The notes under the pieces were generated by a model. It searched no databases. It was not told where the DNA came from and was given only the letters and a program-made list of their open reading frames with translations. A DNA stretch of 64,000 bases from Eubacteriales bacterium. GTDB lineage: Bacteria > Bacillota > Clostridia > Oscillospirales > Oscillospiraceae. Below are positions 63,291-64,000 of this stretch, in pieces. The translations under genes were made by a program, and so were the position numbers. The stretch covers positions 2,097 through 66,096 of the forward strand of contig JAUNND010000002.1 of NCBI GenBank assembly GCA_030531595.1, written 5' to 3'. The stretch's first letter is position 1, and each line of letters begins with the position of its first letter.

Positions 63291-63469
63291 CTGTATACAT
63301 CCTTTCCGATGAGTAATATTATACTCAAATTTATGAAGTCATTTTGCACTTTTTATGTCGATTTGTCAAGCAATTTTTGAATAAATATCCTCAATATTCA
63401 TCATATATGAATTCAAACAGTCTCTCCGGTTTTTCTGATGCGGTTTTGTCTGAGATTTTCAGGAAGTGA

Positions 63470-63656
63470 ATGTATATTTCTTTTCTCGTACCTGTCCTTG
63501 CGGGTTCCTTTCAGCCGGAGACAGTCACCGGCGGGATTTGCGTTGTGAGAAGCATAGTAATGCCCGAAGCAGCGCATTGACGGAACGGCGGCGTTGCTTG
63601 ATTGCTATGTCGGGCTATACGAACACTATAACGAATATACGGGGGCGATACAATGA
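63470..63656 (+). pseudogene. Possible frameshifted remnant of a phage head-tail connector gene
   Basis: Two overlapping frames are involved. One runs 63470-63580 (...SIVMPEAAH-stop). The other runs 63561-63656 (...RIDGTAALLDCYVGLYEHYNEYTGAIQ-stop). The second stop overlaps the next ATG (ATGA). Multiple stops lie upstream. Resemblance to connector C-termini is weak. Confidence 0.25.
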
Positions 63657-64000
63657 AGCTGAAAGACAAGAAAATTGAAATATTGCGGCAGATAACGACC
63701 CGCGACGAACACGGGTTCGGCACGACAACGCTTGATACTATTAACTGATTAAAAATAGACATTTTTAATCAGTTCTTTTGAAGCATTCAAGAGCCGCGCT
63801 ATGCGCGGTTAATGCTTCAAAAGGCGTCTCATACGAAAACTACGCCGCTGCGGCGGCTATTAAAACAAGCCACTTTGTGTCTTGTTTTAATCAGTTTTCA
63901 GTATGAACCCATTTCTGCCCCGGTATGGGCGTATTTCCGGCAGTTATCCGGCAAGGAAGTATTCGCGGCGGCTACCACCAATTACAAGGAAGAAGTCCTG
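63653..64000 (+). pseudogene. Phage head-tail adaptor (head-tail joining family) gene interrupted by the 63743-63906 element; runs off the right edge
   Basis: A GGGGG SD precedes ATG 63653, which gives MKLKDKKIEILRQITTRDEHGFGTTTLDTIN-stop (TGA 63746). The same frame resumes as ...QYEPISAPVWAYFRQLSGKEVFAAATTNYKEEVL, the typical WA...SG.E...A pattern of this family. Confidence 0.6.
63743..63906 (+). mobile_element. MITE-like hairpin-rich insertion, same family as 46096-46279
   Basis: It has 12-nt perfect terminal inverted repeats, AACTGATTAAAA (63743-63754) and TTTTAATCAGTT (63885-63896), flanked by TT on both sides. It contains a 14-bp perfect hairpin at 63743-63774 and a nested hairpin at 63775-63823. 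A three-way-junction module lies at 63829-63906. Confidence 0.55.

What the first reader, a model, noticed from the sequence alone, without database searches (positions are those of the whole stretch)
63743..63906. A hairpin-rich element of about 155 nt splits a phage head-tail adaptor gene, and both halves stay in one reading frame
The adaptor ORF starts at 63653 and is cut by TGA at 63746. Recognisable adaptor sequence (EPISAPVWAYFRQLSGKEVF...) resumes at 63905 in the same frame.

The intervening DNA has these properties:

- Perfect 12-nt terminal inverted repeats at 63743-63754 and 63885-63896, each flanked by TT.
- Three consecutive structures: a 14-bp perfect hairpin, a 13+6-bp nested hairpin with a TAT loop, and the three-way-junction module.
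- Two in-frame stops, at 63746 and 63779.

Deleting 156 nt (63743-63898, the element plus one TT) gives ...GTTTLDTI-QYEPISAPVWA... as one ORF. Deleting 159 nt (63743-63901) also works.

The insert also supplies an in-frame ATG at 63812 that reads through into the C-terminal adaptor half.

This looks like a MITE-type insertion with a 2-bp target duplication. Alternatively it could be a small intervening sequence of an unknown kind inside a phage structural gene.
Basis: partly seen in the sequence, partly recalled or inferred. Interest (0 to 1): 0.72.

Follow-up and report, generated by a model that had tools for sequence, protein, structure and literature searches.

The report
Small transposon interrupting a satellite head-closure gene
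A 168-base, hairpin-rich, non-coding mobile DNA element (a MITE) has recently jumped into a TGA inside the head-closure gene of a decayed phage-satellite island, breaking the gene; this is an ordinary kind of event, though the element family has not been described.

Summary
Intact homologues (98% identical, 107 aa) read ...GFGTTTL|EPISAPVW..., so the extra DNA is 171 nt (63734-63904), not 156 or 159 nt.

At DNA level, two uninterrupted relatives carry a single TGA at this site. The window carries TGA (63733-35), then 168 nt, then TGA (63904-06). That is a 3-bp target duplication, not the proposed "TT".

A second copy, 92.5% identical and 174 nt long including both TGAs, lies at an unrelated locus in a Candidatus Limivicinus MAG. 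Similarity there stops exactly at the two TGAs.

The element has 19-nt terminal inverted repeats (16 of 19 match), stop codons in all six frames, no Rfam match, and very stable hairpins (z about -11).

[quoted passage not shown] Its target behaviour (TNA target, 3-bp repeat) matches the IS1031 group of the IS5 family.

The in-frame halves need no special explanation, because 168 + 3 = 171 is divisible by three. The gene is the last gene of a capsid-forming-PICI-like satellite island. In this window only the final 30 codons of terL precede it, so the island is a truncated remnant. An intron, translational bypass or native domain is not supported. Low interest: new member of a known kind.

The parts
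63561..63656 (+). Remnant of the large-terminase gene (terL): the last 30 codons plus the stop, which overlaps the ATG of the next gene (ATGA). Similarity to intact islands starts at 63559.
   Evidence: blastn to L001 and L002 starts at 63559 at 95-97% identity. The translation PKQRIDGTAALLDCYVGLYEHYNEYTGAI matches the C-terminus of the gene upstream of HCP in L001, which is TerL (PF03354/PF20441) in L002.
63653..63733 (+). 5' part of the head-closure (PF05521, Phage_HCP) gene, codons 1-27 (MKLK...GFGTTTL).
   Evidence: Alignment A1 to intact 107-aa homologues; Pfam hit; ORF list.
63733..63735 (.). Left copy of the duplicated target, TGA.
   Evidence: The single TGA at L001 350-352 aligns to both window 63733-35 and 63904-06. 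The L008 copy has the same flanks.
63736..63903 (+). Body of the MITE: 168 nt, with stop codons in all six frames.
   Evidence: Similarity to the second copy (L008 1594-1767) covers exactly 63733-63906 at 92.5% identity with no gaps. Six-frame translation.
63736..63754 (+). Left terminal inverted repeat, TACTATTAACTGATTAAAA.
   Evidence: the repeat finder I1; pattern search.
63885..63903 (-). Right terminal inverted repeat (reverse complement TACTGAAAACTGATTAAAA). 16 of 19 bases match the left repeat, including the first 4 and the last 12.
   Evidence: the repeat finder I1 and D2; pattern search.
63743..63774 (.). Hairpin 1: 14-bp perfect stem with a 4-nt loop. The stem is the 12-nt repeat motif and its inverted copy.
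   Evidence: (I2). The stem is identical in both copies; only the loop differs.
63775..63823 (.). Hairpin 2: 13-bp outer stem, internal loop, and an inner G+C stem with loop TAT.
   Evidence: (I5). In the inner stem the closing pair changes from C:G to T:A in L008.
63829..63906 (.). Three-way-junction module. The outer stem pairs TCATACGAAAACT with AGTTTTCAGTATGA. It encloses a 5-bp G+C hairpin and a 15-bp hairpin (63859-63891). The outer stem uses the right tip and the right TGA.
   Evidence: (I3, I8). The top pair of the 63859-91 hairpin changes from C:G to T:A in L008.
63904..63906 (.). Right copy of the duplicated target, TGA.
63905..64000 (+). 3' part of the head-closure gene (EPISAPVWAYFRQLSGKEVF...). 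It runs off the end of the window.
   Evidence: Differences from L001 and L002 are mostly synonymous.

Best explanation
The feature is a non-autonomous DNA transposon (a MITE) of 168 nt.

**Inferred mechanism**
- A transposase encoded elsewhere binds the 19-nt terminal inverted repeats. The 12-nt core AACTGATTAAAA occurs three times in the element.
- The transposase makes a 3-nt staggered cut at a TGA in the target, and repair duplicates that TGA.

**What happened here**
- The element landed in the TGA formed by codons 27 and 28 (CTT GAA) of a head-closure gene (PF05521).
- It added 171 nt carrying stop codons, so the gene now ends after 31 residues.
- The downstream half stays in frame only because 168 + 3 is a multiple of three.
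- The in-frame ATG at 63812 has no ribosome-binding site and lies inside a 13-bp stem, so the C-terminal half is probably not made.

**The host gene**
- It is the last gene of a small capsid-forming-PICI-like satellite island.
- In this genome the island has already lost everything upstream of the last 30 codons of terL, so the insertion is probably neutral.

**Shown versus inferred**
- Shown: empty site, filled site, 3-bp repeat, inverted repeats, second copy with identical boundaries, no coding capacity.
- Inferred: a DDE-type cut-and-paste or copy-in mechanism, an IS1031/IS5-like transposase, and loss of gene function.
For: - **Junction from proteins.** Intact homologues read TTTL|EPIS with nothing in between (A1).
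- **Empty site.** L001 and L002 are 94-97% identical on both sides. Their one TGA aligns to both window TGAs.
- **Second copy.** It lies in another genome (L008, Candidatus Limivicinus MAG), between a lipoprotein gene and the 3' end of an ABC-F ATPase gene. Similarity starts and stops exactly at TGA...TGA, and the flanks are unrelated.
- **Inverted repeats reach the tips.** TACT and AGTA abut the two TGAs.
- **No coding capacity and no RNA family.** Stops in all six frames; no Rfam match at E up to 10.
- **Recent insertion.** Window exons differ from L001 by 6 synonymous changes and 1 changed residue, so the gene was under purifying selection until recently.
- **Matching target behaviour.** The IS1031 group of the IS5 family prefers TNA and makes a 3-bp repeat; one Firmicutes member duplicated TGA (PMC12016507).
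- **Truncated island.** Similarity to the island begins at 63559 inside terL. A full island is seen in L006.
Against: - Only two copies are known. None was found in IMG/VR, GenBank phages or PLSDB plasmids, or JGI metagenomes with the hairpin-1 pattern.
- No translated trace appears among 5.8 billion proteins.
- Multi-copy status within one genome, a usual MITE trait, is therefore not shown.
- No autonomous partner with the same inverted repeats was found.
- Both copies have TGA in the same orientation relative to the element. An internal TCATAC... segment pairs with the right tip plus the right TGA. This would also fit an element that carries its own terminal TGA and inserts next to a TGA without any duplication.
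- The inverted repeats do not resemble those of the one IS1031-group element I could read (GAACCTGTCTAGTATCT).
Confidence: 0.8

Rival explanations
1. The element is 171 nt (TACT...TATGA) and inserts site-specifically just 3' of a TGA without duplicating the target. Single-strand HUH/Y1 transposition (IS200/IS605-type palindrome-associated elements) works this way, as could another site-specific recombinase. On this reading the right TGA belongs to the element.
For: - Both copies sit as (T/C)TGA|TACT...ATGA| in the same orientation.
- The element has hairpins close to both ends.
- The internal TCATACGAAAACT pairs with the right tip including the TGA (I8).
- Differences between the copies keep the hairpins, with C:G to T:A double changes.
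Against: - IS200/IS605-type ends are not inverted repeats. Here a 16-of-19 inverted repeat reaches exactly to the bases next to both TGAs.
- The four bases 5' of each end hairpin (TATT, GGCT) show no consistent complementarity to the putative cleavage sites (read from the sequence).
- Two copies cannot establish orientation bias, and a TNA-specific DDE element explains the same data.
Confidence: 0.12
2. The insert is an intervening sequence that is removed so that a working head-closure protein is made. Removal could be by RNA self-splicing, by ribosomal bypass as in T4 gene 60, or by precise DNA excision on induction.
For: - Both halves are in frame and 98% identical to intact proteins.
- The fold is extremely stable.
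- The tips can pair and bring the two junctions together (I1).
Against: - The insert has a 3-bp target duplication, and its second copy lies outside any comparable gene context.
- There is no Rfam hit to any intron or ribozyme family at E up to 10.
- At 171 nt it is far below group I or group II intron size.
- No matching take-off and landing codons would restore L|E (read from the sequence).
- The in-frame property follows from 168 + 3.
- The island lacks terL, portal and capsid genes here, so nothing requires the gene to function.
Confidence: 0.03
3. The insert is an assembly artefact or a chimeric join at a repeat, not a real feature of the genome.
For: - The window's source genome is not in the collections searched.
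- The terL truncation and the 146 unmatched bases at 63413-63558 could not be checked against an independent assembly.
Against: - An independent MAG carries the same 174-nt unit with the same boundaries.
- The junctions show a clean target duplication rather than a random join.
Confidence: 0.03

Closest known systems
Bacterial MITEs (for example Correia/NEMIS elements of Neisseria, RUP of Streptococcus pneumoniae, ERIC/IRU of enterobacteria; comparison from general knowledge)
   Same: 100-200 nt, non-coding, terminal inverted repeats, short target duplication, fold into stable hairpins, found in intergenic regions and at gene ends, moved in trans.
   Different: No sequence similarity to any of them was seen. 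The target duplication is TGA rather than the TA of Correia and RUP. There are two extra internal hairpins and a three-way junction beyond simple pairing of the repeats. Only two copies are known so far.
IS1031 group of the IS5 family (for example ISLrh of Lacticaseibacillus rhamnosus, PMC12016507)
   Same: Preference for a TNA target and an exclusive 3-bp direct repeat. ISLrh itself duplicated TGA. It occurs in Firmicutes.
   Different: Those are about 860-bp autonomous elements with transposase genes. The ISLrh repeat GAACCTGTCTAGTATCT is unlike TACTATTAACTGATTAAAA. No transposase is linked to the element here.
Rickettsia palindromic elements (RPE; comparison from general knowledge)
   Same: Small palindromic mobile elements inserted in frame inside protein-coding genes.
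   Different: RPEs are translated as part of the host protein. This element has stops in every frame and truncates the protein.
Palindrome-associated transposable elements of the IS200/IS605 family
   Same: Small size, hairpins near both ends, and a fixed short sequence next to the left end.
   Different: Those have no terminal inverted repeats and no target duplication. Here both are present.
Capsid-forming PICIs (cfPICI; PMC10085698). This is the host island, not the insert.
   Same: Relatives carry integrase, repressor, HTH, VapE-type primase, portal, fused protease-capsid, HNH, TerL and a head-tail joining gene in about 10 kb, with no tail or lysis genes (L006). The paper notes the fused protease-capsid as typical of Firmicutes cfPICIs.
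   Different: No run of the SatelliteFinder model was possible. In the window only the last 30 codons of terL and the head-closure gene remain.

Membership tests
MITE (non-autonomous DDE-type DNA transposon) | Small size and no coding capacity | tested here: met
   168 nt, with stops in all six frames in both copies.
MITE (non-autonomous DDE-type DNA transposon) | Terminal inverted repeats that reach the element tips | tested here: met
   TACT[ATT/GAA]AACTGATTAAAA, 16 of 19 matching, at 63736-54 and 63885-903. Conserved in L008 except for one tip base.
MITE (non-autonomous DDE-type DNA transposon) | Target-site duplication shown against an empty site | tested here: met
   One TGA in L001 and L002 against TGA...TGA in the window. 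An element-borne TGA cannot be fully excluded.
MITE (non-autonomous DDE-type DNA transposon) | Several dispersed copies at non-homologous sites | tested here: inconclusive
   Two copies in two genomes at unrelated loci. None elsewhere in the 64-kb window. Copy number within a genome is unknown, and the collection scans needed exact 19-24-nt matches.
MITE (non-autonomous DDE-type DNA transposon) | Autonomous element with the same inverted repeats | not testable with these tools
Nothing was found in viral contigs, phages or plasmids.
IS5 family, IS1031 group (as source of the transposase) | TNA target with a 3-bp direct repeat | tested here: met
   TGA at both copies. The family property is taken from PMC12016507 and PMC2516522.
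IS5 family, IS1031 group (as source of the transposase) | Inverted repeats similar to family members, or a linked DDE transposase | tested here: not met
   No resemblance to the ISLrh repeat, the only one compared. No transposase is linked. I therefore do not file the element as a member; it only behaves like one at the target.
IS200/IS605-type palindrome-associated element | No terminal inverted repeats and no target duplication; hairpins near the ends; insertion 3' of a fixed tetra- or pentanucleotide | tested here: not met
   Hairpins and a fixed TGA are present. However, an inverted repeat reaches both tips and the TGA is present on both sides.
Self-splicing intron or small ribozyme | Match to a known catalytic RNA core | tested here: not met
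   cmscan of 63300-64000 against 4227 Rfam families at E up to 10 gave only chance hairpin hits.
Programmed translational bypass (T4 gene 60 type) | Matching take-off and landing codons flanking the gap, with a stop just after take-off | tested here: not met
   Read from the sequence. The codons before the stop are GAT ACT ATT AAC, and the codon before GAA 63905 is TAT. No identical in-frame pair exists. The gap would be 171 nt, against 50 nt in gene 60 (from general knowledge).
PF05521 head-closure / head-tail adaptor (the interrupted gene) | Pfam match above the curated cut-off that spans the junction | tested here: met
   E = 6.4e-6, 27.1 bits against a cut-off of 25, in one stretch covering residues 6-61. 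PHROG 25 head closure Hc1. 437 homologues, the best 98% identical in alignment A1.

The most novel reading that the evidence does not exclude
The 171-nt unit may not be a passive DDE-type MITE. It could be a structured, TGA-specific element of an undescribed mechanism whose hairpins and three-way junction are kept by selection. Three C:G to T:A double changes between the two copies, and an internal guide-like segment that pairs with the right junction, hint at this. Such an element might be mobilised as single-stranded DNA or RNA, or be removable from the head-closure gene.
Probability: 0.06. Interest if true: 0.6.

Novelty: new member of a known kind. Interest (0 to 1): 0.22.

Why it matters
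This adds an undescribed, rare MITE family in gut Clostridia with a clear TGA target duplication, and gives a clean example of a satellite-island structural gene being inactivated. For annotation, the split gene should be called a pseudogene interrupted by a mobile element rather than two ORFs or an intron-containing gene. The locus should be read as a decayed capsid-forming-PICI-like remnant, not a prophage. It does not open a new mechanistic question unless the structured core proves to have a function.

Tried and rejected
- **Rfam.** An E-value search of 63300-64000 gave only chance hairpin hits.
- **Other copies in the window.** None found.
- **Viral contig scans.** Five patterns were tried: the hairpin-1 pattern, three conserved blocks of 19-21 nt, and the inverted-repeat pattern. 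The result was 0 hits, or 50 single chance hits that extend no further than 23 nt.
- **GenBank phages and PLSDB plasmids.** blastn found nothing meaningful.
- **GTDB genome scan with both repeats.** One true copy (L008) and one chance hit in a Bacteroidales gene (L007).
- **JGI metagenome scan with hairpin 1.** 45 loci, all chance. Nine of them are one conserved terminator of an unrelated bacterium.
- **Six-frame translation of both copies against 5.8 billion proteins.** No hit, so no other called ORF runs through a copy.
- **Attempts to see beyond position 64000.** Exact look-ups of window proteins found either no record or only short contigs.
- **Native extra segment of the protein family.** Rejected, because no homologue has residues at this position.
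- **The 156- and 159-nt deletions and the TT duplication.** Rejected.
- **Insertion targeted at a stop codon.** Rejected. In L008 the TGA is not the stop of either neighbouring gene, and in the window it straddles two sense codons.
- **The 3' module as a nested insertion.** Rejected. Its flanks are TCA and TGA, which are not a direct repeat.

Full report

The ORF list shows a 31-codon ORF at 63653-63748 ending in TGA. Translating the same frame through to 64000 gives N*, a second stop at 63779, an in-frame Met at 63812, and then ...FQYEPISAPVWAYFRQLSGKEVF....

The 12-mer AACTGATTAAAA occurs at 63743-54. Its reverse complement occurs at 63763-74 and 63885-96. Those are the only three matches in 64 kb at up to one mismatch, against 0.47 expected.

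The stretch folds into a 14-bp hairpin, a 13-bp hairpin with an inner G+C hairpin, and a three-way junction.
- As RNA: -75.8 kcal/mol, z = -11.0.
- As DNA: -55.4 kcal/mol, z = -11.8.
- In both cases no shuffle folded as well.

**2. Where are the real boundaries?**

The conceptually joined protein hits PF05521 (Phage_HCP) in a single stretch across the junction and PHROG 25, head closure Hc1. A search of 5.8 billion proteins gave 437 homologues, mostly 102-108 aa.

In the alignment every intact homologue reads ...GFGTTTL-EPISAPVW... The extra DNA is therefore 63734-63904, which is 171 nt or 57 codons.

At DNA level, the contigs of the two closest homologues (L001, L002) match the window on both sides:
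- 63559-63735 at 95-97% identity.
- 63904-64000 at 94-96% identity.
- The two matches overlap by three bases in the relatives: L001 350-352 is TGA.

So one TGA in the empty site corresponds to two TGAs flanking 168 nt in the window. It reads TACT-ATT-AACTGATTAAAA on the left and TACT-GAA-AACTGATTAAAA (reverse complement) on the right, and it ends exactly next to the two TGAs (I1). The 'TT' flanks lie inside the element.

**3. Is it mobile?**

A scan of one genome per GTDB species, using both 12-mers 115-145 nt apart, returned one chance hit (L007) and one true copy (L008), on a 4955-nt contig of a Candidatus Limivicinus MAG.
- The similarity is 174 nt at 92.5% identity with no gaps. It covers exactly window 63733-63906, that is TGA + 168 nt + TGA. 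The flanks are unrelated.
- In L008 the copy lies after the terminator of a lipoprotein gene. It replaces the last three codons of a convergent ABC-F ATPase gene (read).
- Both hosts belong to the Clostridia. The window's aminotransferase has its named relatives in Oscillospiraceae and Ruminococcaceae MAGs. Limivicinus is placed in the Eubacteriales.

Both copies have stops in all six frames.

The 13 differences between the copies cluster in hairpin loops. Three are C:G to T:A double changes that keep a predicted pair. One of those three depends on the chosen pairing register. With two sequences this is only a hint that the hairpins matter.

**4. What it is not.**

- Rfam gave no intron, ribozyme or other family at E up to 10.
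- 171 nt is too short for a group I or group II intron.
- No identical in-frame codon pair could serve as take-off and landing sites that restore L|E (read).
- A flanking duplication of target bases is a mark of DNA transposition, not of splicing.
- The in-frame halves need no explanation, since 168 + 3 = 171.
- The in-frame ATG at 63812 has no Shine-Dalgarno sequence and lies in the 13-bp stem, so re-initiation is unlikely (inference).

**5. Context.**

In relatives the head-closure gene is the last gene of a roughly 10-kb island. The gene order is tyrosine integrase, CI-type repressor, HTH_17, VapE-type primase, portal, fused Peptidase_S78-capsid, small ORF, HNH, small ORFs, TerL, HCP (L006; L002).

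This is the gene set of capsid-forming PICIs. The fused protease-capsid is noted as typical of the Firmicutes variants (PMC10085698). I could not run the formal detection model.

Several relatives are already remnants without an integrase or portal gene (L003-L005).

In the window:
- Island similarity begins at 63559, inside terL. Only its last 30 codons remain.
- Synteny with a 95%-identical strain (L105) ends at 63412.
- The 146 nt in between match nothing I fetched.
- Everything upstream for more than 60 kb is housekeeping DNA, including glyA, queA, dapA and an aminotransferase.

The interrupted gene therefore sits in a truncated, presumably non-functional remnant. The exons still differ from intact relatives almost only at synonymous sites: 6 synonymous changes against 1 changed residue compared with L001. 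Both the truncation and the insertion therefore look recent.

**6. Mechanism.**

- Best reading (about 0.8): a MITE moved in trans by a DDE transposase that recognises the repeated AACTGATTAAAA motif and makes a 3-nt staggered cut at TGA.
  - The IS1031 group of the IS5 family prefers TNA and makes an exclusive 3-bp repeat. A Firmicutes member, ISLrh, duplicated TGA (PMC12016507; see also PMC2516522).
  - This is a match in target behaviour only. The inverted repeats differ and no transposase was found, so I do not assign family membership.
- Main rival (about 0.12): the right TGA belongs to the element, which inserts next to a TGA without duplication, as in IS200/IS605-type single-strand transposition or another site-specific system.
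  - Points for it: both copies share the TGA orientation, there are hairpins near both ends, and the internal TCATACGAAAACT pairs with the right tip plus TGA.
  - Point against it: the inverted repeat reaches both tips.
- Removal at RNA or DNA level, or an assembly artefact, each get about 0.03.

**7. How common is it?**

No further copy was found in any of these searches:
- IMG/VR viral contigs.
- GenBank phages and PLSDB plasmids.
- JGI metagenomes with the hairpin-1 pattern. The 45 loci were all chance matches, and nine of them are one terminator of an unrelated bacterium.
- 5.8 billion proteins, searched with a six-frame translation of both copies.

The collection scans need exact matches of 19-24 nt, and short repeats break metagenome assemblies, so copy number is unknown. 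Still, the family is clearly not abundant in public data.

**8. Verdict.**

The MITE interpretation is supported once corrected to 168 nt with a TGA duplication. The 'unknown intervening sequence' reading is not supported. This is a new member of a known kind and of low general interest. Its practical value is for annotation: a pseudogene interrupted by a mobile element, in a satellite-island remnant rather than a prophage.

Noticed in passing
window 63413-63656: The satellite island is truncated. Synteny with a 95%-identical strain (L105) ends at 63412, and island similarity (the last 30 codons of terL) starts at 63559. The 146 nt in between match nothing fetched. No tRNA gene lies nearby.
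   Followed up: partly
L006 1-10400; L003 6100-10400; L004; L005: Relatives of the head-closure gene lie at the end of roughly 10-kb capsid-forming-PICI-like islands in gut Clostridia, with a fused protease-capsid gene, an HNH gene and TerL just before HCP. Several are remnants without integrase or portal genes, lying next to ParAB genes or type I restriction-enzyme fragments.
   Followed up: partly
window 63829-63841 versus 63893-63906: An internal segment, TCATACGAAAACT, is a near copy of the reverse complement of the right tip plus its TGA. It forms the outer stem of the three-way junction, so the 72-nt 3' module looks like a mini-element with its own inverted repeat. Its flanks (TCA and TGA) are not a direct repeat, so it is not a simple nested insertion.
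   Followed up: partly
window 63799/63803 and 63873/63877, compared with L008: The closing pairs of two hairpin tips change from C:G to T:A together with their loops between the two copies. This may reflect selection for the hairpin or hairpin-templated repair. Two sequences cannot tell these apart.
   Followed up: partly
L008 1593-1770: In the Limivicinus MAG the element replaces the last three codons of a convergent ABC-F ATPase gene (...DLENQVR* becomes ...DLENHAEN*) and supplies its new stop codon.
   Followed up: yes
L014, L019, L021, L027, L032, L033, L040, L048, L052: Nine metagenome loci share one conserved intrinsic terminator (AAAAAACTGATTAAAATGGAGATATTTTAATCAGTTTTTTT) after the same gene of an unrelated gut bacterium. 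It matches hairpin 1 of the element by chance.
   Followed up: yes
window 63300-63358: There is a weak partial match to the Rfam uxuA RNA (15 bits against a gathering score of 66.8, E = 8.8) in the leader region upstream of the aminotransferase gene. It is probably chance.
   Followed up: no
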